Shown here piece by piece: positions 10,864 through 37,367 of a stretch of DNA of 64,000 nt. Position numbers and translations under genes: made by a program. The stretch is taken from the NCBI GenBank assembly GCA_030065575.1, contig JASJDZ010000001.1:209884-273883 (forward strand), read 5' to 3'. Within the stretch, counting starts at the first letter, position 1. The number at the start of each line of letters is the position of its first letter. The notes under the pieces were generated by a model. That model was not told where the DNA came from, made no database searches, and worked only from the letters and a program-made list of their open reading frames with translations. The stretch comes from Acidimicrobiia bacterium (GTDB lineage: Bacteria > Actinomycetota > Acidimicrobiia > Spongiisociales > UBA5794).

Positions 10864-11345
10864 GGTGAGAGGATCGTTCGTCGATCGACGGATGTGACTG
10901 TTAACGACCCGAGGATGTCACCAATAATCGGAGTAATTGGCTCAAAGCCGTAGCTCGTGGTCACCAGGATCCGGTCGCCATTCCCCAAGTCGCCGGGATC
11001 CGGCGCCGGTCCACCCACGGGACAGGTGTCCTTCACCACGGTCGCCGGCCCCGAGTCGTATTCGATTGTGATATTCGCCGGCAGCAGCTCGATGCTCTCC
11101 GACAACCACATGCCGGCGTCGCGGATAGCTGGACAATCGACATAGTGGGGGTCGCCAATCCCGTTTGTGCCCACCGCCGATCCGTGTCGCGCTGCTTCCC
11201 GGCTGGCGGTCCGTACTGCATTGTGGGTCGAGATGAGACGGGCGCTATCGATGACGCCGAAGAGCAAGAACAGGATGAGGGGTAGCACGAGAGCGGACTC
11301 GACGAGGGAGGCGCCATTCTCGGACCGGAGTGATCGCAACATCAT
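10860..11345 (-). CDS. TadE-like pseudopilin
   Basis: Internal start 'MMLRSLRSENGASLVESALVLPLILFLLFGVIDSARL'. ATGA overlap with the TadG-like gene. Confidence 0.85.
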   Translation of the reverse strand: MMLRSLRSENGASLVESALVLPLILFLLFGVIDSARLISTHNAVRTASREAARHGSAVGTNGIGDPHYVDCPAIRDAGMWLSESIELLPANITIEYDSGPATVVKDTCPVGGPAPDPGDLGNGDRILVTTSYGFEPITPIIGDILGSLTVTSVDRRTILSP

Positions 11346-19259: not shown

Positions 19260-20168
19260 CTACCGACTCAGCGTCCCTACGTTCACAACCGGGTTCGTCG
19301 GCTGATCACTAGCGATAACGGTCATCAAGTTGGCAGCGAAGGTCGCCTTGCGATCCTCGTCGAGAGCGATGGAATCATGACCCGCATCTCCCTCTTCGAG
19401 GCCGGCGACTGCATCACGCACCATGAGCACGGCACCTTCGACGATCTTCTTGCGAGCAGCGACAATGGCGGCCGCCTGTTGCCGGCGCAGCATCGACTCG
19501 GCGATCTCCGGGGCATACGCCAGGTCGGTGATACGGGTCTCCATGATCTCTACCCCGGCGTCGTCGGCGCGATCCTGCAACTCGACGAGAAGATCCTCGT
19601 TGATCTCACTGGTGGCGCCGATGAGCGTCGTCACATCCGTCTCATCAAACGCGTCATATGGGTACGACCGGGCGAGCTGGCGAACGGCGGACTCCGACTG
19701 GATCTGCACGTAGTTCGTGAAGTTGTCGACGCCGAACACGGCCCGAGCAGTGTCGGTGACTCGCCACACGACGACCGCGGCAATCTCGATCGGGTTGCCG
19801 CGCGCATCGTTGACCTTCGAGGTCTGCGTGGTGAAGTTGCGCACCCGCAGCGATACCTTCTTCTTGATGTACAGCGGATTGGCCCAGCGCAGCCCCGGCT
19901 TTGCGTCGCTTCCCCGATAGTCGCCGAACAGGGTCAGCACGGCCGACTGGTTGGGCTGGATCATGTAGAAGCCGATTGAGACGATGACAACCAGAAGCGA
20001 CAGGAGACTCGCCAGGAGGATCATCCATAGGCTCCCGTTTATCGCTCCGAAGATGAACAGGGCAATTGAGCCGAGCAGCATGACGATGTCGGCCAGCAGC
20101 CAGGGGATACCTCCCCGGGACCGGGCCGGTGTCTCGACTATCTGCAAGTTGGTTTCCCGAACAGTCAC
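19260..20168 (-). CDS. SPFH/Band-7 domain membrane protein
   Basis: N-terminal TM helices, then the SPFH pattern 'PNQSAVLTLFGDYRG...PGLRWANP...AAVVVWRVTD'. GTG 20168 is preferred (SD AGAGGAG 5 nt upstream) over the track TTG 20186. Confidence 0.85.
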   Translation of the reverse strand: MTVRETNLQIVETPARSRGGIPWLLADIVMLLGSIALFIFGAINGSLWMILLASLLSLLVVIVSIGFYMIQPNQSAVLTLFGDYRGSDAKPGLRWANPLYIKKKVSLRVRNFTTQTSKVNDARGNPIEIAAVVVWRVTDTARAVFGVDNFTNYVQIQSESAVRQLARSYPYDAFDETDVTTLIGATSEINEDLLVELQDRADDAGVEIMETRITDLAYAPEIAESMLRRQQAAAIVAARKKIVEGAVLMVRDAVAGLEEGDAGHDSIALDEDRKATFAANLMTVIASDQPTNPVVNVGTLSR

Positions 20169-20193
20169 GATGACTCCTCTTGTCAACTGAGGG

Positions 20194-23280: not shown

Positions 23281-25176
23281 CTAGGCCGCTGCCTCGTTGT
23301 CAACGGCTTCCGGACAGCGGCGCAGCACACCGTTGCCGCCTTCTTCACGACGCCACTTGGGCACGTCGGCAAAGAGACGAGCGATGTCGTCGGCATCCAG
23401 TGTCTCTCGTTCGAGCAGCTCAGCAGTCATAGCCTCCAACGCATCGCGGTGAGCCGCAAGAACGGTATCGGCCTCCTTCTGTGAGTTGTCGAGCAGGCGC
23501 CGGATCTCAGCATCGATCGCAGTTGCAGTGCCATCGGAGTAGGACTGCTGCCCCCCAACGGTCTGGCCGAGGAAGCCGGTTTCGCCGTCATTGAGACGCA
23601 TGAAGCCAAGCGCGTCGGTCATGCCGAATCGGGTCACCATCTGGCGGGCGATATCCGTTGCTTTCTCCAGGTCGTTTGAAGCTCCCGTCGTCGGATCGCC
23701 GTACACGAGATCCTCGGCGGCGCGCCCCCCGGCGAGCATTGCCATCTGATTCCACAGTTGGCTGCGATGGATGAGACGACGCTCCTCCTCAGGAAGCGAC
23801 TGGGTGTAGCCGAGTGCTTGCCCGCGCGGGATGATCGTCACCTTGTGCAGTGGATCCGCACCGGGCAGGGCCCACCCGACCAAGGCATGGCCCGCCTCGT
23901 GATAAGCAACGACCTCGCGCTCCAACGGGGTCAGCACCGAGCCACGCCGCTCGGGGCCAGCCATCACCTTGTCGACGGCGTCTTCCAGTTCGGCATTTCC
24001 CACGAGCTTCTTGCTCCGGCGGGTCGCCAGCAAAGTCGCTTCATTCAGCACATTCGCCAGGTCGGCGCCGGTGAACCCGGGCGTACGCTTGGCAACCGTC
24101 TCGAGATCGATCTCGTCCGAGAGTGGCTTCCCCTTGGCATGAACGCCGAGGATCGCCACCCGACCCGCAAGGTCTGGACGATCGATCAGGATCTGGCGGT
24201 CGAACCTGCCGGGACGGAGCAGCGCAGCGTCGAGCACGTCAGGGCGGTTGGTTGCGGCCATCACAATGACGCCGGTCTGGTTGTCGAAACCATCCATCTC
24301 GACGAGCAACTGGTTCAGAGTCTGCTCCCGCTCGTCGTTGCCGCCACCGAGACCCACTCCACGGCTGCGTCCGACGGCGTCGATCTCATCGATGAACACA
24401 ATTGCCGGGGAGGCTTCCTTAGCTTGCTTGAAGAGGTCGCGCACCCTGCTGGCACCGACACCGACGAACATCTCGACGAAGTCGGAGCCTGAGATCGAGA
24501 AGAACGGAACACCCGCTTCGCCGGCAACCGCACGAGCGAGGAGCGTCTTGCCGGTACCCGGAGGGCCGGTGAGGAGCACGCCCTTCGGGACCCGAGCGCC
24601 CATCGACTTGAAACGAGTGGGCGACTCGAGGAAGTCACGGATCTCAGCGATGTCTTCGAGGGCTTCGTCGAGCCCGGCGACGTCAGAGAACTTCACCTTG
24701 GGTTGATCGGCAGTCACCTGATTGGCCTGCGCCTTGCGGATGTTCATCAGGCCGCCCTGAGCACGACCGACTCCGCGGAAGATCAATATGGCGAGCCCAA
24801 CGATCAACAGAATGGGAAGCAGGCCGATGATGGTGGCGAGGATGCCGGGACCGGAACGCTCGACGGTCGTTTCCGCGTTGGAGGCGAGAAGTAGCGCTGT
24901 TATATCGCCTTCGAACCCGTCGGGGTACGAAGTCGAGAACGCGGTCGCTCCATCGATCGGGGTTCTCAGTTCGCCCACGATTTCGTCTGCATCGACCCTG
25001 ATTGTGGCGGTTGCGATCTCATCTTCGGCAACCAGAGTTTCCAGCTGATCCAGCGTGATCTGGGTCGTTGCCTGGTCGCTTGCCGGTGGCGCGAAGAGCA
25101 CACTGATCAGCAGCGTTGCGCCGATGATCAACAGAATTGGACGTATACGAGACTGCGGGGTGCGGGCGTTCATCAT
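23281..25176 (-). CDS. ftsH: ATP-dependent zinc metalloprotease FtsH
   Basis: Two N-terminal TM helices, Walker A 'GPPGTGKT', SRH '[20 protein letters not shown]' and zinc motif 'HEAGHA'. Start taken at the internal 'MMNARTPQ'. Confidence 0.95.
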
Positions 25177-25374
25177 TTTCCGTTCGGAGCTGATACATAT
25201 ACATCGGTGCCGAGCACGGTTGTGGATGCCTTCGAGCCCTCCCTCAGACCCTGTGGTTGCCCTCCCAAAGAATGGCCGGCTGGGGACACGGCCGGCAGAA
25301 CTCAGAGGTAGGCTCGAACGCAGAGCATCCGGCCGCACCAGCGGTGGGTACGAGTTCAATTGGACACGGCTTCA

Positions 25375-27045
25375 ATGTCTGCTCTGAACCGGTTCAAGCA
25401 ATCAGATGCGTTCTGGCATCTTGAAACCTCCCTGGTGGTCCTTGCCGTCCTGCTTTCGATCATGGCGCTGTTCTCCAACCCAACCCGATCGGGCGCCGTG
25501 TCCGAGGAAGCACAGCCGATATCCGGTGTGATCGCTCAGGCGAATGCCATGCCCCACCAGGGTTGGGCGCCCATGACGGTCTACTTCAGCGCCTTTGGAA
25601 GTCGCTCGACGAGTGGGGACATCCTGCGATACGAGTGGGATCTGGATGGCAATGGCCTCTACGACACTGAAACCGCCGACGGCTACGCCAGCTACACCTA
25701 CGCGAAGCCGGGCGACTACGTGGTAACTCTGCGAGTCGTGGATGAAGCCGGTGCCAGGGCAACCGACAGTCTCACGGTATCTGTTCGCCATCCCGGGTCG
25801 AGCCCGGTGGATTACTGGACGGTTTTTGACGACAGCAGGGTGCAGAGGGTCGATATCGAGTTGACCCAGGCCGCGTGGGATGAGCTCTGGGTCGATCCCG
25901 AGTCCAAGCGAACCGTCAGAGCTGACGCAGAGGTATTCGGGGAGAGACTCAACGACGTCGGATTCCGAATGAGAGGACAGTTCTCCTTGCGGGAATCTGG
26001 GGAGAAGAAGCCGTGGAAGATCGACACCGACTTCTACGTCGACGGCCAGGAGTACCGGAACCTGAAGCAGCTGATGTTCATCAACAACATCGGCGACCCG
26101 ACCATGGTCAGCGAGAAGGTGGCCTACGACCTACTGGGCTTCGCCGGGGTGCCCGCATCGCACGTCAGCTTCGTTGAACTCTGGATCGACATCACAGATG
26201 ACGGCGCGGGTCCTGTCTTCTGGGGTGTGTACTCGATGGTGGAACGAGTCGACAGGAAGTTCCTCGCAGCCAGATTCGGGAACGACAGTGACCAGGGGAA
26301 TCTCTACAAGGCAAGCCATGCGCAGAGAGGCCCCATGGATCTGATCTACTACGGCGACAGCATCGAGAACTACCCGACGCAAGGCGGACAGTATGCCTAC
26401 GGGAAGGTCACCAACGAGGAGGAGAACGACTACTCCGACGTGATCAACCTCGCCAGGGTGATCGACGGCACCACCTATTCCACCTGGGAGGACTTCGCAG
26501 AGGCTCTGGAGGAGGTGTTCAACGTGGATACCTTCCTGCGCTACATCGCCGTGATGAACGCTTTCGCCACCTGGGATTACTACCCGTACACGGGCAACAA
26601 CTTCTTCCTCTACAACAACCCTGCGACCGGCAGGTTCGAGTGGATTCCCTGGGATCTAACGGTGGGAGGGGACACGCGCACTCCCCTCTTCGAACTCACC
26701 GACTTCGGGTTCCTGGAACGGGCTCCGCTCTACGAGAACGTCTTCGAGGTCGAACGGTATCGCTGGAAGTACGCGGCCTACCTCGACCTCCTCGCCAGGA
26801 ACCGTTTCAACTACGACATCATCTACGCATCAACGAGCGGGCTGCACGACATGATCGCCCCCTACGTGACGCAGGGCACCGGGGACAAGATGTACTTCGG
26901 TGACACGGCCATGTTCCCGTACGAGAGCTTCGCAGGCGGGTGGGACGGACTGGCGACCTTCGCCGGTGAGAGAAGCCGTTTCATCCTCGAGGAGCTTGCC
27001 TCAATGCAACAGCAATCCGTCTTCGACTCAGGAGGATCACAGTGA
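25375..27045 (+). CDS. membrane-anchored PKD-domain + CotH kinase family protein
   Basis: N-terminal anchor 'LVVLAVLLSIMALF'. PKD-like 'MTVYFSAFGS...YEWDLDGNG...GDYVVTLRVVDEAG'. CotH-like blocks 'NLYK' and 'NNFFLYNNPATGRFEWIPWDL'. Confidence 0.8.
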   Translation: MSALNRFKQSDAFWHLETSLVVLAVLLSIMALFSNPTRSGAVSEEAQPISGVIAQANAMPHQGWAPMTVYFSAFGSRSTSGDILRYEWDLDGNGLYDTETADGYASYTYAKPGDYVVTLRVVDEAGARATDSLTVSVRHPGSSPVDYWTVFDDSRVQRVDIELTQAAWDELWVDPESKRTVRADAEVFGERLNDVGFRMRGQFSLRESGEKKPWKIDTDFYVDGQEYRNLKQLMFINNIGDPTMVSEKVAYDLLGFAGVPASHVSFVELWIDITDDGAGPVFWGVYSMVERVDRKFLAARFGNDSDQGNLYKASHAQRGPMDLIYYGDSIENYPTQGGQYAYGKVTNEEENDYSDVINLARVIDGTTYSTWEDFAEALEEVFNVDTFLRYIAVMNAFATWDYYPYTGNNFFLYNNPATGRFEWIPWDLTVGGDTRTPLFELTDFGFLERAPLYENVFEVERYRWKYAAYLDLLARNRFNYDIIYASTSGLHDMIAPYVTQGTGDKMYFGDTAMFPYESFAGGWDGLATFAGERSRFILEELASMQQQSVFDSGGSQ

Positions 27046-28439
27046 GTGGAAATCGCGTCTGTCGAGTCGGGGTCCTCGTCCTGATGGGAGTCCTGCTCAC
27101 GGCCTCCCCGGTGCGAGCCGACGACGGAGGATTTGCCGAGACATTCGACGATACGGGCCTCGCCGGCTGGGAGCAGCAGGGTGACACGATCGTCGAAGCC
27201 GGCATTCTCAAGATGTCGCCACCGTCGATGGTTACGAGGCCCGGTACGTGGTCTGGAATATCGCTGACAGTGGAACTCCGCCTCGATGCTGAGGGATTCG
27301 CGGTAATCGACTACATGGTCACGGAGGGGCAGCACTACTCCCTGACCGTGCTGTCGGAGCAGGTGTTCCTGGAGCAGGTAACCGAGGACGATCAGGTACG
27401 CCTGTGGGAGACAACCGATTCCACCGTCACGGATGATTGGAGCACGGTGACGATCGGATTCGACGGCACCGACCACACGGTGACAATCAACGACAGCCTC
27501 CTGGCCACGGTCGCAGACTCGAACCCACTGGCAGCCGGCGGGGTCAGGCTTCACATCCCTGCCGGATCTCTCGTCGAGTTCGACGAGGTGACACTCGTGG
27601 CTCAGTCAGGTGACGCTGGCGAATTGGGTGAAACCGCCCCTGAACCCGCCGAGGAGATGACCCCAATCCCGGGGGAGGAGATGCCGCCCGGAGAGCAGGA
27701 CACCCCTCCGGTCGAGGGGCAAACCGGCGCGGTCGCCGACCCGGCGAGCGAGACCACGACCGACACGGGGTTCTTCAGCGACTTCTTCGCCACACAGCCG
27801 AACAACGTCGAACTCAGAACCTTTGCTGTCAATCTCGGCCTCGCTGCGATCGTCGCCTACATCCTGAGTCTGGCCTACATCCATTGGGGGGCCTCCCTAT
27901 CCAACCGAAGGGTCTTTGCCGCCAACTTCATGTTGCTGACGTTGACGACGACCTCCATCATCCTGGTCGTCCGTTCGTCGGTTGCCCTATCGCTCGGTCT
28001 CGTCGGCGCACTGTCCATCGTGCGTTTCCGGGCTGCAATCAAGGAACCGGAGGAGTTGGCCTACCTGTTCCTCGCCATCGGCCTCGGTATTGGCCTCGGT
28101 GACAACCAGCGTCTGGTGGTGTTGCTGACTCTCGTTGTTGCGATCGTGGTGATCGGCCTCATGAAGTTGTTCCGCAACCCCACCGCCGATCCCAATCTGC
28201 ACCTGGCGGTTGCCTCCAACGCGCCCAACAAGGTCGGTCTCGAGGACATCACAAACGTGCTCGACCAGCATTGCTCGCAGGTGAAGCTGCTTCGCTTCGA
28301 TGAGGATCCTGACACGCTGGAGACATCGTTTCTTGTCGAGTTCAAGCGAGTCTCCGATGTCGGCCAGACGAACGCCGCACTGCAAGCTCTATCTCCCGGG
28401 ATGCAGGTAACACTGCTCGACAACAGGGGAATCTGGTAG
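27042..28439 (+). CDS. secreted jelly-roll (DUF1080/LamG-like) domain + acidic Pro/Glu linker + DUF4956 membrane domain protein
   Basis: GTG overlaps the CotH stop, with RBS GGAGGA. Signal peptide 'VLVLMGVLLTASPVRADD'. DUF4956 hallmark 'LGLVGALSIVRFRAAIKEPEELAYLFLAIGLGIGLG'. Confidence 0.8.
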   Translation: MSGNRVCRVGVLVLMGVLLTASPVRADDGGFAETFDDTGLAGWEQQGDTIVEAGILKMSPPSMVTRPGTWSGISLTVELRLDAEGFAVIDYMVTEGQHYSLTVLSEQVFLEQVTEDDQVRLWETTDSTVTDDWSTVTIGFDGTDHTVTINDSLLATVADSNPLAAGGVRLHIPAGSLVEFDEVTLVAQSGDAGELGETAPEPAEEMTPIPGEEMPPGEQDTPPVEGQTGAVADPASETTTDTGFFSDFFATQPNNVELRTFAVNLGLAAIVAYILSLAYIHWGASLSNRRVFAANFMLLTLTTTSIILVVRSSVALSLGLVGALSIVRFRAAIKEPEELAYLFLAIGLGIGLGDNQRLVVLLTLVVAIVVIGLMKLFRNPTADPNLHLAVASNAPNKVGLEDITNVLDQHCSQVKLLRFDEDPDTLETSFLVEFKRVSDVGQTNAALQALSPGMQVTLLDNRGIW

Positions 28440-28446
28440 GCACGCC

Positions 28447-29121
28447 ATGGCCAGTTACCGGTACGAGCGGAAGTTCCTCGTAGACCAGCTCGACGAGCAC
28501 CAGGTGATGGGGCTGATCCGGCGCCACCCGGCGATGTTCTATCAGCCCTACCCGCCCCGGATCAACAACAACTTCTATATGGACACGGCCGACATGGTGC
28601 ACTACCACGACAACGTCATCGGCTCTGCCGACCGACGAAAGGTGCGGATCCGCTGGTACGGATCGTTGACGGGCCTCGCGGCAGAGCCGGTGCTCGAGTT
28701 CAAGATCAAGCGCGGATTGGTGGGTACCAAGCGCCAGTATCGAGTTCCCGGCTTCACGGTAGGGCGCGGGTTCAAGACGAAGGAGGTGATGCGAGGGATC
28801 CTCGGAGGGGACCTTCCCCCCGAAGTCAGGAGTTCACTGAGAACGGTGAACATCGTGCTGATGAACAACTACCACCGCCGCTACTTCGTCTCGCGAGACG
28901 GGCGGTTCCGGCTCACCCTCGACACCAAGATGGCCTACTACCGAATTGCGGAAACGAGCAACTGGATGGCCCATAGGCAATCCGACCAACGCAACGTGAT
29001 CCTGGAACTCAAGTACGGAATCGAGGACGACGCAGCCGCTTCTAAAGTGTCCACCTTCTTCCCCTTCCGCATCACCAAGAGCTCTAAGTACGTGCAGGGA
29101 ATAGAGCGGGTGTATATGTAG
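28447..29121 (+). CDS. VTC-domain (CYTH-like polyphosphate polymerase domain) protein
   Basis: 'YRYERKFLV' N-terminal CYTH/VTC signature and 'RKVRIRWYG'. 224 aa, 8 nt after the upstream stop. Confidence 0.75.
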   Translation: MASYRYERKFLVDQLDEHQVMGLIRRHPAMFYQPYPPRINNNFYMDTADMVHYHDNVIGSADRRKVRIRWYGSLTGLAAEPVLEFKIKRGLVGTKRQYRVPGFTVGRGFKTKEVMRGILGGDLPPEVRSSLRTVNIVLMNNYHRRYFVSRDGRFRLTLDTKMAYYRIAETSNWMAHRQSDQRNVILELKYGIEDDAAASKVSTFFPFRITKSSKYVQGIERVYM

Positions 29122-29166
29122 GTCGACGATCGGGGGGACCCGGCGAGGAAAGTTAGTGTCGGGTAC

Positions 29167-30354
29167 ATGGATGACACTTCGGTCACCGAGATAGCGGCGT
29201 TGTGCAGCCGGGTACTGCGCCGGAACTGGCGTGAGGGTGAAGAGAACGGGCGGCACTACGGGTTCACCGCCCCCAGCCCCGGCCACTATCCCTGGCAGTG
29301 GTACTGGGACTCGGGGTTCCATGCCATCGTCTGGCGTCGACTCGATCCCGACCGATCGCGACTGGAGCTCGAAACGCTCCTCGACAGCTCCCAAGAAGGG
29401 TTCATCGGACATACGTCCTTCCTCGGGCGCCCGCTCGACCTGGAGCGGGCAAGTCGATACAACGTTGCCACCCGCCACGCCCCTACCACGAGCACGATCC
29501 AGCCGCCTCTGCTCGCCTGGGCCTGGTCGATTGCGGTCGGCGACCCCACCGCAGAAGCGCGCATCTCGGAGCATCACGAATGGCTGCGCTCTCACCGTGA
29601 CCTCGAGGGGGACAATCTGTTGTGGCTGATCCAGCCAGATGAATCCGGGATGGATGCCTCGCCGAAGTTCGATCATGTTTGGGACCGCCGTGCGCACGGT
29701 CGTTGGCCGTTTCCGCTGCTCATTCACGGCAACCGCCGACGCGGTTTCGATGCCCGTCGCATTGCCGCAGAGCGGCGCCCGGTCGTGTGCGAGGTGGTGA
29801 CCAACGTTCTTTGGTCGCTGTCCGAGCAGGCGATGGGTAACCCCTCACCGACGCCATCCCTGGTGGATCGGCTCTGGAAGGATGATCTGGGCCGATTCGT
29901 TGACGACGTGCGATCCCCAGCACGTTCGATCGACGCTGCGGATATCCCGCTCACCTGGGACACCCTTGCCCCGCTGGCTCTTCCCGACCTCCCTGACGAG
30001 ATAGGTCACCGGCTCGTGCGGGAGATTCTGCTCCACCCGGATGAGTTCTGGGGTGGCGTACCGCTGCCATCTGTGGCACTCAACGACCCAACCCATACCT
30101 CCCGCGAGTTCTTCTGGGGCCGACGACGCATTTGGCGCGGTCCTAGCTGGGTCAACGCGGCCTGGTTCGTTTGGATGGGTCTCAATCGGCTCGGATACGC
30201 ACAGGAGGCAGGTGAGCTGCGGGATCGTCTGGTTTCTGTCGTGCTGCGAGAGGGACTTCGCGAGTACTACGACGCCCACACCGGAAGCGGCATGGGTGCC
30301 CAGGACTTCGGCTGGTCGGCTCTCGTATGGGAGATGGTGGACCCAGTGGGCTGA
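29167..30354 (+). CDS. (alpha/alpha)6-barrel glycoside hydrolase (GH63/MGH1/trehalase-like)
   Basis: 'YPWQWYWDSGFHAIVW', 'RGPSWVNAAWFVWMGL' and 'EYYDAHTGSGMGAQDFGWSA' are typical blocks of this superfamily. Confidence 0.7.
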   Translation: MDDTSVTEIAALCSRVLRRNWREGEENGRHYGFTAPSPGHYPWQWYWDSGFHAIVWRRLDPDRSRLELETLLDSSQEGFIGHTSFLGRPLDLERASRYNVATRHAPTTSTIQPPLLAWAWSIAVGDPTAEARISEHHEWLRSHRDLEGDNLLWLIQPDESGMDASPKFDHVWDRRAHGRWPFPLLIHGNRRRGFDARRIAAERRPVVCEVVTNVLWSLSEQAMGNPSPTPSLVDRLWKDDLGRFVDDVRSPARSIDAADIPLTWDTLAPLALPDLPDEIGHRLVREILLHPDEFWGGVPLPSVALNDPTHTSREFFWGRRRIWRGPSWVNAAWFVWMGLNRLGYAQEAGELRDRLVSVVLREGLREYYDAHTGSGMGAQDFGWSALVWEMVDPVG

Positions 30355-30364
30355 TGCCGCTCCC

Positions 30365-31516
30365 TCACCCGACCTGCCACGGGTCGATGACGACCTTGAC
30401 CGCGTCCTCCTCCATCGACTTGGCGATCGCAGCCGCCGTCTCGCTGAGACCGAAGCGGTGGGTAACGAAGTCCCGTAGACCCGACGCATCGCGGGCCATC
30501 TGCCGCATCCCTGGGAGGTAGCCAGAGGCCTCCTGGCCGGAGACCCCGATGACCCGTATGCCTTTGCTCACCAGGTGCCGGTTGGGGAAGATCTCGACAG
30601 GTCCCAGGTCGCTGAAGTTACCGACCATCACTGCCAGCCCACCCGGCCGGGTCGCATCGAAGACCGTGGGCACCACCTCAGGAACCCCGGCCGCCTCCAC
30701 CACCACATCGCCGCCACCGTCTGTCATCTCGAGTAACTCCGCAGACAACTCCGCTTGGCTCATACCCCGGTTGCCTACCGTCATCGTTGCACCGAGGGTC
30801 AGGGCGAACTCGAGACGGCCCCCGAGCAGATCCACGGCGATGATCTCGCCCGCTCCCAACATCCGCGCCTTGACAATGTGGAGCAGCCCGAGCGGTCCGC
30901 ACCCGATGACAATCACGGTGTCGTCGAACAGGAATGACTCCCCCGGCACCGCCGACATCTGCCGCGCCCGGTCTAGACCAACCGTGACCGCAAACACCTC
31001 AGCGAGCACTGCGATCTCATCTGGCACATCGTCGGGAACCTTGAAGAAGTAGGTACCGGGGAGGGTGTGCATGTACTGCGACCATCCACCGAGGAGATGG
31101 GGCGGCTCGGCGCAGGTCATGGTGTTGCCGTAGTCGCGGATGTTCTCGCACAGGGTGTACGGCCCGCGTCTGACGCACGCCCGGCAGTGGCCGCACACCA
31201 GGTTGGGCCCGACCACTACACGATCGCCCGGTTGGAGAAGGGTCCCGGCATAGTCCCGAATGGGGCCATTCGCCTTGACCAACTCGCCGACGATTTCGTG
31301 CCCCTGGATGATCGGGAACGGCGTTTCGCTCGGGTTCGACAGTCCGGTGTACTGACCGGTGTAGCCCTGATAGGTGTGCTTGTCGGTGCCACAAATGCCA
31401 CAAAGGTTCACCTTGACAATGGCTTCTCCCGCCTCGACCAGGTCCCCGATGGGGTAATCGCGCACCTCATACTCACAAGGTGCCGTGAGCACTGCCGCGA
31501 GACTCATTCCATCCAT
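30365..31516 (-). CDS. zinc-dependent alcohol dehydrogenase (MDR family)
   Basis: 'CGICGTDKH', 'GHEIVGE', the structural-zinc Cys cluster 'CGHCRACVRRGPYTLC' and the Rossmann motif 'GCGPLG'. Confidence 0.85.
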   Translation of the reverse strand: MDGMSLAAVLTAPCEYEVRDYPIGDLVEAGEAIVKVNLCGICGTDKHTYQGYTGQYTGLSNPSETPFPIIQGHEIVGELVKANGPIRDYAGTLLQPGDRVVVGPNLVCGHCRACVRRGPYTLCENIRDYGNTMTCAEPPHLLGGWSQYMHTLPGTYFFKVPDDVPDEIAVLAEVFAVTVGLDRARQMSAVPGESFLFDDTVIVIGCGPLGLLHIVKARMLGAGEIIAVDLLGGRLEFALTLGATMTVGNRGMSQAELSAELLEMTDGGGDVVVEAAGVPEVVPTVFDATRPGGLAVMVGNFSDLGPVEIFPNRHLVSKGIRVIGVSGQEASGYLPGMRQMARDASGLRDFVTHRFGLSETAAAIAKSMEEDAVKVVIDPWQVG

Positions 31517-33949: not shown

Positions 33950-34345
33950 CTACTGCGGTTGTGGCGGAGTGGTGGCGGGGTGTGTGGCGATTCCGACGAG
34001 TGAGCCAGAGAGCCACCACCTCGGGCGGGTCACGTCACGGGATCCGATCAGCGACCCGCCGACACCGAGGAACCGGCCGGTGCCTCCGACGATGGCGAGC
34101 GTCACCACACCTACGGTGTCCAGGCGATAGGTCCCGTAGAGAGCATTGCTCTTGCTGTCGACGATGGTCACCCAGCCACGCGAGGCGGACGATCCGGCAG
34201 TTGCGACAAGGGTGAACGCACCAACCGAGCCCAACTCTCCGCGCACTGCCTCATCGCCAAACACCCCCTCCAGCCATCCCGACGTCGCAACCGCGTGGTC
34301 CCAGGGGACGTCCGTTCCATCCGTGGCATCCCGGTTGTCGCTCAT
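33950..34345 (-). CDS. hypothetical protein
   Basis: 131-aa ORF divergent from the SARP gene. No recognisable motif. Confidence 0.4.
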   Translation of the reverse strand: MSDNRDATDGTDVPWDHAVATSGWLEGVFGDEAVRGELGSVGAFTLVATAGSSASRGWVTIVDSKSNALYGTYRLDTVGVVTLAIVGGTGRFLGVGGSLIGSRDVTRPRWWLSGSLVGIATHPATTPPQPQ

Positions 34346-34430
34346 GCGGAGATCGTCGGAGGCCTTGGTGGTGGTCGAGTTGTCGACGAGTTGTGGTCGC
34401 TACCGTCGTCCAATTCGATACGATGTCCGT

Positions 34431-37367
34431 ATGGAGGTTCGGATCCTCGGTCGCGTCGAGGTGACTAACGATGGTGCCACGATCCAAATCGAGGGACCCA
34501 AGGAACGAGCGATCCTCTCCGCACTCGCACTCGAAGCCGGCACCCCCGTTACCTCAGGTCGGCTATGCGATGTGTTGTGGGGGGACGAGCCGCCGGAAAC
34601 TGCGACAAAGACCCTGCAGTGGCACGTTTCGCGGCTGCGGCGCTCGATCGGAACCGACATCGTCGTGACCGAACCCGGCGGGTACTCCCTCGGCGTATCA
34701 CCAGAAGATGTGGATGCCATCCGCTTTGAACGGCTACTGGTCCATGCACGCGATCTGCTCCTCCGCGATGACCCAGCTGCCGCTGCCCAGGATCTCGAAA
34801 CCGCTCTCGAACTGTGGTCGGGTGCCCCTCTTACCGATGGAGCCGCCAGCGGCTATCGCACCGGACAGGACCGCCGCTTCGCTGAGCTACACACCCTTGC
34901 CCACGAACGCTTGGTCGAGGCCGAACTCGGGCTCGGGCACCACGAATCGATGATCCCACGTCTCCACGCCATGATCGCCGTGGAGCCCTATCGCGACCGG
35001 CCCCGGGAACTCCTGATGCTCGCCTTGTATCGAGCGGGGCGCCAGGCGGACGCACTGCGATCGTATGCCGACTACCGCAAGCTGCTCGTAGAGGAACTCG
35101 GCATCGATCCCTCAGAGGGAGTCCGCGAACTCGAGGAGCGAATCCTGCGCCAGGATCCCCAACTCGACCATCGGCCACCTCCTCCGCCCTCCAATCTGCC
35201 GCGGGAGAGAGATCCCATTATCGGGCGCTCTGGCGATGTCGGCGCCGTTATCGATGCCATCGGCCCTCACACAATTGTCACACTCGTCGGAGCGGGCGGT
35301 ATGGGCAAGAGCCGTCTCGCCCTAGCGGTAGCTCATCAGACCCAGCCGACGTTCCGTGACGGGACATTTTGGATCGATCTAGCCGCGCTGCGCCCCCACG
35401 ACAACCTCGCCGAGCACATCGCGGCAACACTCGGCGCAACCCCGGCACCCGGACAGCCCGCTATCAGTGCACTCGCAGTGTTCTTAGCACGCCGCGACAT
35501 CCTGATCGTGCTCGACAACTGTGAGCATCTTCTGTCCGAAGCTGCGGAACTCGGTGCAATTCTTGTCGAGGCAGGATCCGGGGTTCGCGTTCTGGCAACC
35601 TCACGCGCAGCGTTGGGTCAGCCGTCGGAGCGTCGCATGGTCGTGGGCCCCCTCAGCACCGATCGAACGGAGGGCGCACCATCAGAGGCCGAGGAGCTCT
35701 TCCGGCTCCGGGCTAGCGAGCACTCATCGCTTGGCATGAGCGACGATGAGGGCACCGACATCGCAGAGCTTTGCAGGATGCTCGGCGGCATACCCCTGGC
35801 AATTGAGATCGCAGCAGCTCGCTCCGATGTCCACACAGCTCGCGAGATCATCGATGAGATCGAGGCGACCGGCCGACTCCCCAGCCGGACAGAGACTCCA
35901 GAGCATGTGCGGCAAGAGAACCTCGACTACGTTCTCGACTGGTCGTACTCCATGCTCGAACCTGAGGAACAGGTTGCGTACGACAAGCTCGCCGTCTTCC
36001 GCGGTGCGTTCGACCTCGACGCAGCAGCCGAAGTTCTCGACCGGGAAAGGTCCAGCGCAGGTCATCTTCTCGGAAGATTCCTGGCCGCATCCATGGTCGT
36101 TCCAGCCGACCCAGGAAGTGGCGTGCGGAGATTCCGACTCCTCGAGCCTCTCCGTCTCTACGCCCGATCACACCTGGACGACGAGGCATACGTCGCGACC
36201 TCGACTCGGCATGCGGATTACTACCGGAACTTCTGCTCAGAGTCGTCTGTGTACGTGAAAGAAGACGTCACTGGATGGCGGGGACGGATTCTTCTCGATG
36301 ACCGGAACATCACCGCTGCAATCGAATGGTCGCTCACTAATGGAGGACCCGGTTTTGCTCTACCGTTTGCCGACAACATCGGCGACGCCTGGTATCGATC
36401 CGGCCAGTACCAGCGATGCTTCCGGGTGCTGTCTGAGATGCTCGAACACGCTGGCGATGCCCCACCAGCCCTTCGCGCCAGTGCGCGCAACGCAATCGTG
36501 TGGCCTGCCCTGCTTTCCGGTGAGAGTCAGACTGCCTTTGCGCACGTCTCCAAGGCGATCGAGGAAGCCGAGGAAGCAGGCGATGCCGTGCAGCTTGCCT
36601 GGGCCCGGTGGTCCCTGGCACACATGCTGGTTCTAGGTGTCGGAGACTTCGCGTCGGCCTTCCCTCTCTACGACGCCGCCATCGAGGCGGCGGGTAGCGA
36701 CCTCGAGCAGTTTGGCTCTCTCACCGGCCTTGGCGTAGCGGCGCGAGCCCAAGCTCGGGCCATGGCGGATATCGAGGCGCCCGACGACGTGGAGTCACTC
36801 GATCGGGCCGAGAGGCTGCTCACCCAGATCAACGACATGTCGGGGCTCGCTCACGTCTGGATGGCGCGCTCCATAAGGGCAATCAGAGAGGGCGACGTCC
36901 GTCGAATTCGGTTCACCTCGGAACGGACGATCCACTTCGGACGCCTGGTTAGCGAACCGGTGTACGAGCACATCGGCCTTTTCGGGCGAGCCGTGGGCGA
37001 GCTGCTAGGCGCCAACCTGCCCAGCGCCCTCGACACCACTTACCAGTCGGTGCGCATCTGCGAGGCAACGCAGAATCTCCTCCAGCTCGGCGTCTCTCTC
37101 CAGGCGCTTGCGGTAGTTGCCGTCGAAGTCGGCCAGATGCGAGAGGGAGCAACGCTCTACGAAGCTGGGACATCACTTGCTGCCCCGTGGCCAATGTTCG
37201 AGCGGATCTTTGCTCCGTACTTCGAGAAGTGTGCAGATGAACTGGGCGACGATTTCGATGTCGCACGCAAGCGAGGTGCAGAGCTGACCGTCGACGAGGC
37301 TATGGCGCTAGCCGCATCGATACGGATCCGGCCGGAGGAAGGCTCGGTGCAGGACTCATCGACCTGA
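34431..37367 (+). CDS. AfsR/SARP-family regulator (wHTH-BTAD + NB-ARC ATPase + TPR-like C-terminus)
   Basis: Internal ATG 'MEVRILGRVEV...'. BTAD 'DAIRFERL...MLALYRAGRQADAL'. Walker A 'GAGGMGKS' and 'ILIVLDNCEHL'. Confidence 0.85.
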   Translation: MEVRILGRVEVTNDGATIQIEGPKERAILSALALEAGTPVTSGRLCDVLWGDEPPETATKTLQWHVSRLRRSIGTDIVVTEPGGYSLGVSPEDVDAIRFERLLVHARDLLLRDDPAAAAQDLETALELWSGAPLTDGAASGYRTGQDRRFAELHTLAHERLVEAELGLGHHESMIPRLHAMIAVEPYRDRPRELLMLALYRAGRQADALRSYADYRKLLVEELGIDPSEGVRELEERILRQDPQLDHRPPPPPSNLPRERDPIIGRSGDVGAVIDAIGPHTIVTLVGAGGMGKSRLALAVAHQTQPTFRDGTFWIDLAALRPHDNLAEHIAATLGATPAPGQPAISALAVFLARRDILIVLDNCEHLLSEAAELGAILVEAGSGVRVLATSRAALGQPSERRMVVGPLSTDRTEGAPSEAEELFRLRASEHSSLGMSDDEGTDIAELCRMLGGIPLAIEIAAARSDVHTAREIIDEIEATGRLPSRTETPEHVRQENLDYVLDWSYSMLEPEEQVAYDKLAVFRGAFDLDAAAEVLDRERSSAGHLLGRFLAASMVVPADPGSGVRRFRLLEPLRLYARSHLDDEAYVATSTRHADYYRNFCSESSVYVKEDVTGWRGRILLDDRNITAAIEWSLTNGGPGFALPFADNIGDAWYRSGQYQRCFRVLSEMLEHAGDAPPALRASARNAIVWPALLSGESQTAFAHVSKAIEEAEEAGDAVQLAWARWSLAHMLVLGVGDFASAFPLYDAAIEAAGSDLEQFGSLTGLGVAARAQARAMADIEAPDDVESLDRAERLLTQINDMSGLAHVWMARSIRAIREGDVRRIRFTSERTIHFGRLVSEPVYEHIGLFGRAVGELLGANLPSALDTTYQSVRICEATQNLLQLGVSLQALAVVAVEVGQMREGATLYEAGTSLAAPWPMFERIFAPYFEKCADELGDDFDVARKRGAELTVDEAMALAASIRIRPEEGSVQDSST

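What the first reader, a model, noticed from the sequence alone, without database searches (positions are those of the whole stretch)
25375..30354. CotH kinase / DUF4956 / VTC-polyphosphate-polymerase-like / glycosidase operon: a candidate uncharacterised envelope system
Four co-directional, tightly spaced genes follow one another (GTGA overlap, then 7-nt and 45-nt gaps):
- a membrane-anchored extracytoplasmic PKD+CotH atypical-kinase protein;
- a DUF4956 polytopic membrane protein;
- a cytoplasmic VTC/CYTH tunnel-fold protein ('YRYERKF'), homologous to the catalytic domain of eukaryotic polyP polymerase Vtc4;
- an (alpha/alpha)6 glycoside hydrolase.

From memory, the CotH+VTC+DUF4956 trio recurs in diverse bacteria, but I know of no experimentally assigned function.

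One hypothesis follows from the parts list. A VTC-like enzyme and DUF4956 channel would make and export polyphosphate (or another phospho-polymer). An outward-facing CotH kinase would then use or modify it at the cell surface. ftsH is divergently adjacent.
Basis: partly seen in the sequence, partly recalled or inferred. Interest (0 to 1): 0.75.

Follow-up and report, generated by a model that had tools for sequence, protein, structure and literature searches.

The report
Membrane kinase–channel–polyphosphate enzyme gene trio
This bacterium carries a conserved three-gene set whose function nobody has shown: an outward-facing CotH kinase, a DUF4956 membrane protein, and an enzyme resembling the yeast polyphosphate-making enzyme, which together may make polyphosphate inside the cell and use it to phosphorylate surface sugars outside.

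Summary
Four co-directional genes lie at 25375-30354 with the stated junctions and domains.

The conserved unit is three genes, not four:
- PKD-CotH (25375-27045)
- lectin-like ectodomain + DUF4956 (27042-28439)
- a stand-alone VTC tunnel enzyme (28447-29121)

The GH63-like glycosidase (29167-30354) had no homologue next to the trio in any of 83 related loci.

Co-occurrence is strong in both directions:
- Anchored on VTC, 54 of 56 genome loci with enough flank carry all three genes on one strand. They span more than 10 phyla, including Methanosarcina.
- Anchored on DUF4956, 24 of 24 metagenome loci carry VTC and 19 of 24 have a detectable CotH.
- Gene order varies (CDV, DCV, DVC, VDC).

The VTC protein keeps the Vtc4 residues needed for polyphosphate synthesis, including the lysine that inactive Vtc2/Vtc3 lack. 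The CotH keeps both catalytic aspartates and has an N-terminal membrane anchor.

The trio is already published as accessory genes of Gram-positive pel operons. Knock-out phenotypes there are modest and no mechanism is known. That work reported the trio is absent outside pel loci, which this scan contradicts.

Synthesis and export of polyphosphate to supply an ecto-kinase acting on surface glycans is the best-fitting mechanism. It is untested.

The parts
25177..25374 (.). Divergent intergenic region between ftsH (probable start about 25176) and cotH. The last ~70 nt form a leader conserved with relative L001 and contain a TAGGCT -10-like hexamer.
   Evidence: One search gives the sequence. One search aligns it with L001, where the upstream gene is different. 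No sigma-70 consensus promoter and no Rfam family were found.
25375..27045 (+). Gene 1: membrane-anchored PKD-CotH atypical kinase, 556 aa.
   Evidence: Pfam CotH 2.6e-47 and PKD_4 6.9e-12. PDB 5jd9 B. cereus CotH matches at 2e-9. The start is confirmed by relatives.
25420..25473 (+). N-terminal hydrophobic anchor of gene 1 (residues ~16-33, LETSLVVLAVLLSIMALF), preceded by R6/K8/H15. Predicted topology is N-in, C-out.
   Evidence: Kyte-Doolittle 15-mer score 2.85. The same feature is present in 40/41 type-A and 23/25 type-B CotH partners, and the exceptions are ORFs cut by contig ends. The topology itself is inferred.
25561..25785 (+). PKD domain of gene 1.
   Evidence: Pfam PKD_4/PKD. It matches collagenase ColH PKD domains in the PDB.
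25966..26982 (+). CotH kinase domain of gene 1. D401 is the catalytic Asp (B. subtilis D228) and D427 the metal-binding Asp (D251). K211, E290 and N409 are also invariant.
   Evidence: Alignment to 5jd9. The catalytic residues are taken from PMC7821199. All five residues are conserved in 41/41 type-A homologues.
27042..28439 (+). Gene 2: signal peptide + lectin-like ectodomain + linker + DUF4956 five-helix membrane domain + cytoplasmic ACT-like domain, 465 aa.
   Evidence: Pfam DUF4956 7.3e-15. AF2 model. It is 100% identical to an NCBI 'DUF4956 domain-containing protein [Acidimicrobiia bacterium]'.
27042..27119 (+). Signal peptide of gene 2 (residues 1-26, ...SPVRA|DD).
   Evidence: Helix 3-19 in the model. 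A26 is invariant in 25 homologues. Cleavage is inferred.
27132..27608 (+). Beta-sandwich ectodomain of gene 2 (residues 31-189), concanavalin-like lectin/glucanase fold. Probably binds glycan.
   Evidence: pLDDT ~90. Foldseek top hits are GH16 beta-glucanases, CBM66 and galectins at E 1e-8 to 1e-7. Pfam 3keto-disac_hyd 3.3e-5, below threshold here but recorded for most homologues.
27615..27785 (+). Disordered Pro/Glu-rich linker of gene 2 (residues 192-248).
   Evidence: pLDDT below 50. Length and sequence vary among homologues.
27804..28172 (+). DUF4956 membrane domain (five predicted helices, residues 255-377). The motif RSSVALSLGLVGALSIVRFRAAIKEPEEL is near-invariant.
   Evidence: Helix predictions come (pLDDT 55-65). 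Charged-loop positions agree with an N-out/C-in topology (inference).
28197..28421 (+). C-terminal beta-alpha-beta-beta-alpha-beta (ACT-like) cytoplasmic domain of gene 2 (residues 386-460).
   Evidence: AF2 secondary structure, pLDDT ~80. The S. intermedius homologue SIR_1592 is described as TM + ACT (PMC12345266).
28447..29121 (+). Gene 3: stand-alone cytoplasmic VTC/triphosphate-tunnel enzyme, 224 aa. It is a candidate polyphosphate polymerase.
   Evidence: Pfam VTC 2.7e-22. AF2 pLDDT 88.9. Foldseek top 13 hits are yeast Vtc2/3/4 tunnel domains at E ~1e-12. Catalytic residues are mapped.
29167..30354 (+). Gene 4: cytoplasmic GH63 / MGH1-like (alpha/alpha)6 glycoside hydrolase. It is adjacent and possibly co-transcribed, but it is NOT part of the conserved module.
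   Evidence: Pfam MGH1-like_GH 3.2e-47. NCBIfam glucosylglycerate hydrolase scores only 92 bits against a 550-bit cut-off. No homologue in 83 related loci.

Best explanation
**The unit.** Genes 25375-29121 form a self-contained three-gene cassette that works as one trans-membrane unit.

**Proposed mechanism.**
1. The cytoplasmic VTC-type tunnel enzyme (gene 3) polymerises phosphate from ATP, as yeast Vtc4 does.
2. It docks on the cytoplasmic face or ACT-like domain of an oligomer of the DUF4956 protein (gene 2), which passes the polyphosphate chain across the membrane.
3. Outside, the membrane-anchored CotH kinase (gene 1) uses that chain as an energy-rich phosphoryl donor, in a compartment with no ATP. 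It phosphorylates a cell-surface or secreted glycan, or possibly a protein.
4. The lectin-like ectodomain of gene 2 and the PKD domain of gene 1 hold the substrate.

**Shown by tool results.**
- The three families are obligately linked.
- The active-site residues of both enzymes are intact.
- The topology signals are present.
- The module repeatedly sits next to exopolysaccharide genes in other lineages.

**Inferred only.**
- Polyphosphate synthesis by gene 3.
- Transport by gene 2.
- Polyphosphate as the donor for gene 1.
- Glycan as the substrate.

The glycosidase downstream is a neighbour, not a component.
For: **Linkage**
- In 56 genome loci anchored on VTC with at least 4.5 kb upstream, 54 carry DUF4956 + CotH + VTC on one strand within 6 kb.
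- In 24 metagenome loci anchored on DUF4956, 24 carry VTC and 19 have a detectable CotH. Two of the five remaining loci were inspected, and both have a ~970-aa beta-helix protein in the CotH position.
- There are zero background hits beyond 6 kb.
- Gene order is permuted (CDV, DCV, DVC, VDC) and flanking genes differ. Selection, not inherited synteny, therefore keeps the genes together.
- Stop/start overlap or gaps of 7-9 nt occur here and in relatives.

**VTC enzyme**
- The top structural matches are Vtc2/3/4 tunnel domains.
- Residue mapping to Vtc4:
  - K9 = K200
  - R67/R69 = R264/R266
  - K86 = K281
  - Y142/R144 = Y359/R361
  - S213-K214 = S457-K458
- K214 sits where inactive Vtc2/Vtc3 carry Ile/Leu.
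- All of these residues are invariant in 18 sequences from more than 10 phyla.

**CotH**
- Both catalytic aspartates are present in 41/41 type-A homologues.
- An N-terminal anchor is conserved in both architectures.

**DUF4956**
- The topology is N-out/C-in. The membrane core is near-invariant, rich in Arg/Lys at the cytoplasmic face and in Ser/Thr/Asn within the helices.

**Glycan link**
- The ectodomain has a lectin/CBM fold.
- The other architecture has CotH fused to a beta-helix domain.
- The module lies inside Wzx/Wzy/GT4/Wzc clusters in Bacteroidota, next to GT2/PMT genes in L097, in Gram-positive pel operons, and in the C. perfringens NELoc-2 locus with a glycosyltransferase and a deacetylase.
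- Deleting the CotH or the DUF4956 gene changes Pel level and aggregation in S. intermedius.

**Precedent**
- The yeast VTC complex couples a tunnel polymerase to a pore lined with positive charges.
Against: - No biochemical activity is known for any bacterial VTC or DUF4956 protein. The library search found none.
- Characterised CotH kinases use ATP. Nothing shows that a CotH fold can take polyphosphate.
- In S. intermedius, the VTC knock-out had no aggregation phenotype, whereas the CotH and DUF4956 knock-outs did. The latter two also changed Pel amount in opposite directions. A simple linear pathway does not predict this.
- DUF4956 is not homologous to the Vtc1-type channel. Its nearest, and only weak, relative is MgtC (E 0.04-0.23), which is a regulator, not a transporter.
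- The membrane part of the model has low confidence (pLDDT 55-65).
- No VTC fusions appeared among the 150 best VTC relatives, all of them 169-292 aa.
- In the second architecture, the catalytic-Asp column of CotH aligns to a conserved His, so phosphotransfer by the third partner may not be universal.
- The alignment of S213-K214 to S457-K458 rests on a short motif match that is not significant on its own.
- The E187 = E426 equivalence is inferred from strand order only.
Confidence: 0.4

Rival explanations
1. A cytoplasmic phosphate-metabolism or regulatory module. The VTC enzyme makes or hydrolyses polyphosphate or triphosphate inside the cell. The DUF4956 protein acts like MgtC, as a membrane regulator or sensor whose ACT-like domain binds a small ligand, and it relays a signal. 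CotH is an ordinary ATP-dependent protein Ser/Thr kinase, or a scaffold, that tunes exopolysaccharide or envelope machinery. Nothing is exported.
For: - DUF4956 is weakly MgtC-like with a C-terminal ACT-like domain. JGI names some homologues 'YhiD'.
- The authors of the S. intermedius study assumed the polyphosphate stays cytoplasmic.
- The VTC knock-out has no phenotype, while the CotH and DUF4956 knock-outs shift Pel levels in opposite directions. That pattern looks regulatory.
- Tunnel enzymes include many triphosphatases (hits 14-27).
Against: - CotH carries a conserved N-terminal anchor plus PKD or beta-helix domains that are typical of extracytoplasmic proteins. No ATP is available there.
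- The closest sequence and structure relatives of gene 3 are the VTC polymerase family, not the triphosphatases. It keeps the K458-equivalent lysine.
- A regulator would not be expected to co-occur so strictly with one enzyme family across bacteria and archaea in unrelated contexts.
Confidence: 0.25
2. A surface polyphosphate or phospho-polymer deposition system in which CotH is not a kinase for other substrates. VTC + DUF4956 secrete polyphosphate as a matrix, chelating or capsule-like polymer. The CotH-family protein anchors, caps, trims or ligates it to glycans.
For: - The core pair VTC + DUF4956 is more constant than CotH (24/24 against 19/24).
- Type-B partners have an unusual active-site column and big beta-helix domains.
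- PPK-independent extracellular polyphosphate that resists exopolyphosphatase, as if its ends were blocked, has just been reported in the Bacillus cereus group. That organism has no VTC homologue.
Against: - In the architecture found in this window, the full kinase catalytic set (K211, E290, D401, N409, D427) is invariant. This argues for phosphotransfer chemistry.
- No polyphosphate ligase activity is known for the CotH fold.
Confidence: 0.2
3. A four-gene envelope operon in which the GH63-like glycosidase is a functional member. It would trim the glycan that the kinase modifies.
For: - Same strand, a 45-nt gap, a Shine-Dalgarno-like GAGGAAAG before the ATG, and no terminator between genes 3 and 4.
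- Gram-positive pel-linked versions carry a different glycoside hydrolase (DUF4832) nearby.
Against: - No homologue of gene 4 lies in any of 83 related loci, including the closest relatives at 71-86% VTC identity.
- Gene 4 has no signal peptide or membrane segment.
- It belongs to the cytoplasmic mannosyl-/glucosylglycerate hydrolase-like GH63 group.
- In S. intermedius the hydrolase occurs independently of the trio.
Confidence: 0.05
4. Chance adjacency of unrelated genes.
For: None beyond the lack of direct functional data.
Against: - Co-occurrence holds in 54/56 and 24/24 loci, with permuted order, across more than 10 phyla, and with zero background hits.
- The start and stop codons overlap.
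Confidence: 0.02

Closest known systems
Eukaryotic VTC complex (yeast Vtc4/Vtc3/Vtc1 polyphosphate polymerase-translocase; PDB 3G3Q, 7YTJ, 8I6V)
   Same: - Gene 3 has the same tunnel fold (Foldseek E ~1e-12, TM-score ~0.68 on the query) and matches Pfam VTC.
- The residues that bind triphosphate/Mn2+ and are needed for synthesis are conserved, including the K458 equivalent.
- As in yeast, the enzyme is tied to a membrane protein with basic residues at its cytoplasmic face. Here the tie is genetic rather than covalent.
   Different: - Gene 3 is a 224-aa stand-alone protein with no SPX domain and no fused transmembrane domain.
- The membrane partner (DUF4956, five helices + ACT-like domain) is unrelated to the three-helix Vtc1-type domain.
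- The product would go to the cell exterior, not into a vacuole.
- A third, outward-facing kinase partner has no counterpart in the yeast complex.
- Activity is untested.
cotH / polyphosphate-polymerase / DUF4956 (+DUF4832 hydrolase) accessory genes of Gram-positive pelDEADAFG operons (Whitfield et al., PMC7112168; S. intermedius SIR_1594-1591, PMC12345266)
   Same: - The same three protein families are adjacent and co-directional.
- CotH is predicted to be secreted or surface-located, VTC cytoplasmic, and the DUF4956 protein is TM + ACT.
- A glycoside hydrolase lies nearby.
- Function is unknown.
   Different: - No pel or other exopolysaccharide genes were found among the 46 larger ORFs of this 64-kb window that were scanned.
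- The published analysis reported failing to find the trio outside pel loci. Here it is a free-standing cassette in Acidimicrobiia/Chloroflexota, and it sits inside Wzx/Wzy clusters in Bacteroidota.
- The accessory domains differ. PKD replaces FN3 on CotH. DUF4956 carries an extra signal peptide + lectin-like ectodomain. The hydrolase is GH63-like rather than DUF4832, and it is not conserved.
Bacillus CotH spore-coat protein kinase (PDB 5JD9)
   Same: The atypical kinase fold family is the same (Pfam 2.6e-47; PDB match 2e-9). The catalytic Asp (D228) and metal-binding Asp (D251) equivalents are present.
   Different: - Bacillus CotH acts in the mother-cell cytoplasm with ATP on coat proteins CotB/CotG.
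- Gene 1 has a membrane anchor and a PKD domain and is predicted to face outward.
- The organism is an Acidimicrobiia MAG, a class not known from my own knowledge to form endospores.
- Substrate and phosphoryl donor are unknown.
MgtC / YhiD / SapB family membrane proteins
   Same: A small helical membrane domain is followed by a cytoplasmic ACT-like domain. Sequence similarity of type-B DUF4956 proteins to Pfam MgtC is weak (E 0.04-0.23). MgtC has links to phosphate and ATP homeostasis (as cited in PMC12345266).
   Different: Gene 2 itself gives no MgtC match even at E = 10. It belongs to the separate Pfam family DUF4956 and is strictly paired with a VTC enzyme. Here it also carries an ectodomain.
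Clostridium perfringens NELoc-2 pathogenicity locus
   Same: It contains CotH-family and VTC/polyphosphate-polymerase-domain genes, together with a glycosyltransferase and a polysaccharide deacetylase (PMC11677781).
   Different: It is plasmid or pathogenicity-locus borne in a Firmicute. tblastn of gene 3 against the plasmid collection found no match at E <= 1e-3, so the relationship is distant. The composition differs: two VTC-like genes, a HEAT-repeat protein, and a sigma/anti-sigma pair.

Membership tests
VTC / Vtc4-type polyphosphate polymerase tunnel domain (Pfam PF09359) | Sequence match to the VTC family model above its curated threshold | tested here: met
   79.9 bits against a 23-bit cut-off, covering 2-234 of 235 model positions. 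Profile against PDB: Vtc2 4.5e-7, Vtc4 4.8e-5.
VTC / Vtc4-type polyphosphate polymerase tunnel domain (Pfam PF09359) | Closed beta-barrel 'triphosphate tunnel' fold | tested here: met
   AF2 model has mean pLDDT 88.9 and pTM 0.85. The top 13 Foldseek PDB hits are Vtc2/3/4 tunnel domains, followed by other tunnel metalloenzymes. This is a predicted structure, not a solved one.
VTC / Vtc4-type polyphosphate polymerase tunnel domain (Pfam PF09359) | Residues required for polyphosphate synthesis in Vtc4 (K200, R264, R266, K281, Y359, R361, E426, S457, K458) | tested here: met
   K9, R67, R69, K86, Y142, R144 and S213-K214 align to them and are invariant across phyla. The E426 equivalent (E187) is inferred, not aligned. 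The S457/K458 match rests on a short motif.
VTC / Vtc4-type polyphosphate polymerase tunnel domain (Pfam PF09359) | Lysine at the position that separates active Vtc4 (K458) from inactive Vtc2 (I522) and Vtc3 (L527) | tested here: met
   The 'TKSSKYVQG' of gene 3 aligns with 'PKFSKFIHG' of Vtc4 and 'PKFSIFVQG' of Vtc2. The lysine is invariant in 18 sequences.
VTC / Vtc4-type polyphosphate polymerase tunnel domain (Pfam PF09359) | Polyphosphate polymerase activity with ATP | not testable with these tools
   Needs an enzyme assay.
Eukaryotic VTC complex architecture | SPX domain and C-terminal Vtc1-type transmembrane domain fused to the tunnel domain | tested here: not met
   Gene 3 is 224 aa with the VTC domain only. 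The 150 best relatives are 169-292 aa.
CotH kinase family (Pfam PF08757) | Sequence match above the curated threshold | tested here: met
   162.3 bits against a 23.8-bit cut-off, covering 2-321 of 322 positions.
CotH kinase family (Pfam PF08757) | Catalytic Asp (B. subtilis D228) and metal-binding Asp (D251) | tested here: met
   D401 and D427 align to the two Asp residues 23 apart in 5jd9. The residue roles come from PMC7821199. Both are present in 41/41 type-A homologues.
CotH kinase family (Pfam PF08757) | Protein kinase activity and spore-coat role | not testable with these tools
   There is no spore-coat context. The anchor + PKD domain argue for a different, extracytoplasmic role.
DUF4956 (Pfam PF16316) | Sequence match above the curated threshold | tested here: met
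   55.5 bits against a 30.6-bit cut-off.
MgtC family (Pfam PF02308) | Sequence match to the MgtC model | tested here: not met
   Gene 2 gives no hit even at E <= 10. Type-B relatives give only 12-15 bits against a 31.4-bit cut-off.
cotH-PPP-DUF4956 accessory module of Gram-positive pel operons | The three families adjacent and co-directional | tested here: met
cotH-PPP-DUF4956 accessory module of Gram-positive pel operons | Contiguity with pelDEADAFG | tested here: not met
   46 of the larger ORFs of the 64-kb window were scanned with Pfam. None is a pel, GT4, Wzx or Wzy gene. The same holds in L001 and L002.
cotH-PPP-DUF4956 accessory module of Gram-positive pel operons | DUF4832-type glycoside hydrolase partner | tested here: not met
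   The downstream hydrolase is GH63/MGH1-like and is not conserved with the trio.
GH63 / MGH1-like glycoside hydrolases (gene 4) | Family model match; equivalog-level match to glucosylglycerate hydrolase | tested here: inconclusive
   Pfam MGH1-like_GH gives 162 bits (met). NCBIfam GluglyHdase gives 92 bits against a 550-bit cut-off (not met). Gene 4 is a family member of unknown specificity.

The most novel reading that the evidence does not exclude
The cassette is a prokaryotic polyphosphate synthase-translocase that is non-homologous, in its membrane part, to the eukaryotic VTC channel. Its product powers phosphorylation outside the cell. It would be a dedicated way to deliver phosphoanhydride energy to an ecto-kinase that decorates surface or secreted glycans. 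It would also be a third, PPK-independent route to polyphosphate in bacteria and archaea.
Probability: 0.3. Interest if true: 0.88.

Novelty: new variant of a known kind. Interest (0 to 1): 0.62.

Why it matters
- **Polyphosphate synthesis.** In prokaryotes, polyphosphate synthesis is attributed to PPK1 and PPK2. The polyphosphate literature searched here treats the VTC polymerase as eukaryotic. A catalytically intact VTC-type enzyme, locked to a membrane partner in thousands of prokaryotic lineages, would add a third route if it is active. The profile search found 5,651 clusters at 50% identity, a count that may include eukaryotic VTC proteins.
- **Extracellular phosphorylation.** How bacteria phosphorylate anything beyond the membrane, where there is no ATP, is an open problem. 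An exported phosphoanhydride polymer feeding an anchored kinase would be a simple answer. It can be tested directly with three small proteins.
- **Links to biofilm and virulence.** The module sits in biofilm and virulence loci (Pel in streptococci, NELoc-2 in C. perfringens). Its chemistry could therefore explain properties of matrix polysaccharides.
- **Correction to the literature.** This scan corrects a published statement that the trio is confined to pel loci. It also shows that VTC + DUF4956 is the constant core of the module.

Tried and rejected
- **Single-sequence PDB search with gene 3.** It found nothing. Profiles were needed.
- **tblastn of gene 3 against the plasmid collection.** No match, so no annotated plasmid example such as NELoc-2 could be pulled in.
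- **Rfam scan of 24800-30600.** No RNA family.
- **Promoter and terminator scan.** No sigma-70 consensus promoter and no terminator between the genes. The scan is not suited to this high-GC actinobacterium.
- **Glycosidase as a member of the system.** Rejected: 0 of 83 loci.
- **ftsH adjacency as meaningful.** Rejected: the flanks differ in L001, L002 and the P0068 contig.
- **Other conserved neighbours.** All-against-all clustering of flank ORFs gave only the three families, their antisense shadow ORFs, and lineage-restricted exopolysaccharide genes.
- **MgtC membership of DUF4956.** Not met.
- **Fusions between the three families as evidence of physical contact.** None seen.
- **Active-site status of the type-B CotH partners.** Still inconclusive. 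The catalytic-Asp column aligns to a conserved His, with a conserved Asp six residues upstream.
- **Shared upstream regulatory motif.** Only a ~70-nt leader shared with one close relative was found. No Pho-box-like repeat could be established from three sequences.
- **Complex prediction.** Not possible.

Full report
**What is in the window.**
- Four ORFs lie on the + strand at 25360/25375-27045, 27042-28439, 28447-29121 and 29167-30354.
  - The gene 1 stop overlaps the gene 2 GTG start (GTGA at 27042-27045, with AGGAGGA just upstream).
  - Seven bases separate genes 2 and 3.
  - Forty-five bases separate genes 3 and 4.
- No terminator-like site lies between the genes.
- Pfam confirms every domain call:
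  - gene 1: CotH 2.6e-47 and PKD 6.9e-12;
  - gene 2: DUF4956 7.3e-15;
  - gene 3: VTC 2.7e-22;
  - gene 4: MGH1-like/GH63.
- ftsH is divergent upstream and a Zn-dependent alcohol dehydrogenase is convergent downstream.
- Gene 2 is 100% identical to an NCBI protein from an Acidimicrobiia metagenome-assembled genome, so the window comes from an uncultured actinobacterium. Its GC content is about 62%.

**Anatomy of the three proteins.**
- *Gene 1.*
  - The protein starts at ATG 25375. Relatives begin with the same sequence.
  - A hydrophobic stretch at residues ~16-33 follows basic residues. A PKD domain and the CotH domain come next.
  - Aligned to B. cereus CotH (PDB 5jd9), D401 and D427 fall on the two aspartates 23 residues apart. 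These correspond to the catalytic D228 and metal-binding D251 of B. subtilis CotH.
  - Both aspartates, plus K211, E290 and N409, are invariant in 41 homologues.
- *Gene 2.* The AlphaFold model shows these parts in order:
  - a signal-peptide helix;
  - a confident beta-sandwich at residues 31-189;
  - a disordered Pro/Glu-rich linker;
  - five membrane helices at residues 255-377, predicted with low confidence;
  - a C-terminal ACT-like domain.
- The beta-sandwich matches GH16 glucanases, CBM66 and galectins. It is therefore probably a glycan-binding ectodomain.
- The charged loops agree with an N-out/C-in topology (inference).
- The membrane core RSS(V/L)ALSLGLVGALSI(V/I)RFR(A/T)AIKEPEEL is essentially invariant from Acidimicrobiia to Methanosarcina. 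The partner VTC proteins are only about 42% identical over the same range.
- *Gene 3.*
  - It is a stand-alone 224-aa protein with no signal or membrane segment.
  - Its model is confident (pLDDT 88.9).
  - Its 13 best structural matches in the PDB are the tunnel domains of yeast Vtc2, Vtc3 and Vtc4. Other triphosphate tunnel enzymes follow.

**Is the VTC enzyme likely to be active?**
- The cryo-EM study of the yeast complex lists K200, R264, R266, K281, Y359, R361, S457, K458 and E426 as needed for polyphosphate synthesis. It states that only K458 differs in the inactive paralogues, being I522 in Vtc2 and L527 in Vtc3.
- Profile alignments place the window residues as follows:
  - K9 on K200;
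  - R67/R69 on R264/R266, through the shared R-x-R-W-Y-G motif;
  - K86 on K281;
  - Y142/R144 on Y359/R361;
  - S213-K214 on S457-K458.
- Vtc2 shows S-I at the last position in the same alignment.
- All of these residues are invariant in 18 sequences from more than ten phyla.
- The E426 equivalent (E187) is inferred only. The last motif match is short and not significant by itself.

**Is the linkage real?**
- *VTC-anchored scan.* I scanned one genome per species of GTDB with a VTC profile and kept 80 loci. I then searched their six-frame ORFs with HMMs built from the window proteins and from a divergent CotH.
  - Of the 56 loci with at least 4.5 kb upstream, 54 carry DUF4956, CotH and VTC on one strand within 6 kb.
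- *Architecture A.* Found in Acidimicrobiia and Chloroflexota, and the one in this window. The order is PKD-CotH, then ectodomain-DUF4956, then VTC.
- *Architecture B.* Found in Bacteroidota, Planctomycetota, Gemmatimonadota, Thermotogota, a complete Methanosarcina genome and others.
  - The order is a short DUF4956, then a ~870-aa CotH fused to a beta-helix domain, then VTC.
- *DUF4956-anchored scan.* A reciprocal scan of metagenomes was anchored on DUF4956.
  - All 24 loci with enough flank have VTC, and 19 have a detectable CotH.
  - Two of the five remaining loci were inspected. Both have a ~970-aa beta-helix protein in the CotH slot.
- Four gene orders occur.
- No DUF4956 or CotH hit occurs in the 343 kb of flank lying more than 6 kb from VTC.
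- Flanking genes differ even among close relatives.
- Clustering of all flank ORFs found no other widely shared neighbour.
- The unit is therefore a three-gene cassette whose constant core is VTC + DUF4956.

**The glycosidase and ftsH are neighbours, not members.**
- Gene 4 has no homologue in any of the 83 related loci.
- It lacks a signal peptide.
- It belongs to the cytoplasmic mannosyl-/glucosylglycerate-hydrolase-like GH63 group, without reaching the equivalog threshold.
- It may be co-transcribed in this genome. That would be a local accident.

**Context elsewhere points to glycans.**
- In Bacteroidota the cassette sits among Wzx, Wzy, Wzc-like, initiating sugar transferase and GT4 genes. 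Extra CotH paralogues are also present there.
- Locus L097 has GT2, methyltransferase and PMT-type genes beside it.
- Published work places the same three families, plus a DUF4832 hydrolase, directly after Gram-positive pel operons.
- They also occur in C. perfringens NELoc-2, together with a glycosyltransferase and a polysaccharide deacetylase.
- This window shows no such genes among the 46 larger ORFs scanned. Here the proteins themselves carry the likely glycan-binding parts.

**What is already known.**
- The trio was described in 2019/2020.
- In S. intermedius:
  - deleting the CotH gene lowered Pel and aggregation;
  - deleting the DUF4956 gene raised Pel but lowered aggregation;
  - deleting the VTC gene had no aggregation phenotype.
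- The authors proposed a link to phosphate metabolism and assumed the polyphosphate stays in the cytoplasm.
- They also reported that the arrangement was not found outside pel loci. The scans here contradict that.
- I found no paper assigning an activity to a bacterial VTC or DUF4956 protein.
- A 2026 preprint reports PPK-independent extracellular polyphosphate in the Bacillus cereus group and notes that no VTC4 homologue is present there. This shows the question is open, but it says nothing directly about this cassette.

**Most likely mechanism.**
- My best reading, at confidence about 0.4, runs as follows.
  - Gene 3 makes polyphosphate from ATP at the inner face of the membrane.
  - A gene 2 oligomer conducts the chain outward, by analogy with the coupled synthesis and translocation in yeast VTC.
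  - The anchored CotH uses the chain as a phosphoryl donor on a surface or secreted glycan, which the lectin-like and PKD domains hold in place.
- This reading explains four things:
  - why an outward-facing kinase, with no ATP available, is tied to a cytoplasmic phosphoanhydride-polymer enzyme and a membrane protein;
  - why the anchor on CotH is conserved;
  - why the membrane core is under extreme constraint;
  - why the module travels with polysaccharide genes.
- Several facts weigh against it:
  - no activity has been shown for any bacterial VTC or DUF4956 protein;
  - known CotH kinases use ATP;
  - the VTC knock-out is silent in S. intermedius;
  - DUF4956 is unrelated to the Vtc1 pore and only faintly MgtC-like;
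  - the membrane part of the model has low confidence;
  - the active site of the architecture-B CotH partners is uncertain.
- The rivals are a cytoplasmic regulatory module (0.25), a surface polyphosphate deposition system in which CotH is not a general kinase (0.2), a true four-gene operon (0.05), and chance adjacency (0.02).

**Verdict.**
- The unit is three genes, not four.
- It is a new variant of a gene group that was already described but never characterised. Here it is free-standing, carries different ectodomains, and lies in lineages where it had been reported absent.
- The mechanism is an attractive, testable inference, not a finding.
- Interest is moderate to high, because three small proteins could settle two questions:
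  - whether prokaryotes have a VTC-type polyphosphate synthase and exporter;
  - how phosphorylation outside the cell is energised.

Noticed in passing
window 4878-5690 (+): A microbial rhodopsin gene (Bac_rhodopsin 5.9e-36). An FAD amine-oxidase/desaturase-like gene (7965-8981) and an NAD-dependent epimerase-family gene (6838-8001) lie nearby. This suggests a light-using aquatic Acidimicrobiia.
   Followed up: no
window 15419-18973 (+) and 34146-37367 (+): Two very large OmpR-type/BTAD regulators fused to STAND NTPase domains. The first (1184 aa) also carries a C-terminal Bmp/PnrA-like solute-binding domain, an unusual sensor fusion.
   Followed up: no
window 25300-25374; L001 4860-4931: A ~70-nt leader before cotH is conserved between the window and relative L001, although the upstream genes differ (ftsH here, a trehalose-6-phosphate phosphatase-like gene there). 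It contains TAGGCT, which fits the actinobacterial -10 pattern TANNNT. This is possibly the cassette's own promoter/5'UTR.
   Followed up: partly
window 23281-25359 (-): The ftsH ORF as listed starts at a TTG at 25359, which adds ~61 residues with no FtsH similarity. The likely start is the ATG near 25176 (MMNARTPQ...), which leaves a ~198-nt divergent intergenic region.
   Followed up: partly
L061 6549-10675; L065 6663-17681; L069: In the second architecture the CotH partner is ~870 aa and fused to a right-handed beta-helix/pectate-lyase-like domain. The column of its catalytic Asp aligns to a conserved His, with a conserved Asp six residues upstream. Saprospiraceae loci carry up to four CotH-like paralogues in a row, next to Wzx/Wzy genes.
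   Followed up: partly
window 27990-28070 (gene 2 residues ~311-338) and all DUF4956 partners: A ~30-residue stretch of the DUF4956 membrane domain, SS(V/L)ALSLGLVGALSI(V/I)RFR(A/T)AIKEPEEL, is practically invariant across bacteria and an archaeon. The rest of the protein and the VTC partner diverge to ~40% identity. This is unusually strong constraint for an uncharacterised membrane protein.
   Followed up: partly
L097 8368-11280; L124 7732-10647; L143: Some DUF4956+VTC pairs have no recognisable CotH. In L097 and L124 a ~970-aa protein occupies that position; only its C-terminal beta-helix is recognised by Pfam, so it may be an even more divergent CotH-like domain. L143 has no such partner nearby.
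   Followed up: partly
window 59544-60911 (+), 61305-62477 (+), 62817-63986 (-): Two sulfatase genes flank a Fic/DOC-family gene.
   Followed up: no
window 10860-12481 (-): TadE-like and TadE/G-like Flp-pilus assembly genes.
   Followed up: no
window 49578-52241 (+): An 887-aa protein with a PPDK_N ATP-binding domain and a PEP-utilising mobile domain. It is a PEP-synthase/phosphotransferase-like enzyme of unknown role and another phosphoryl-transfer enzyme in the window. No link to the cassette was found.
   Followed up: no
window 2064-3017 (-), 19260-20186 (-); L001 1-2862: DUF5996 and Band_7/SPFH genes occur both in the window and just upstream of the trio in relative L001. This indicates partial synteny that has been broken by insertions around the cassette.
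   Followed up: no
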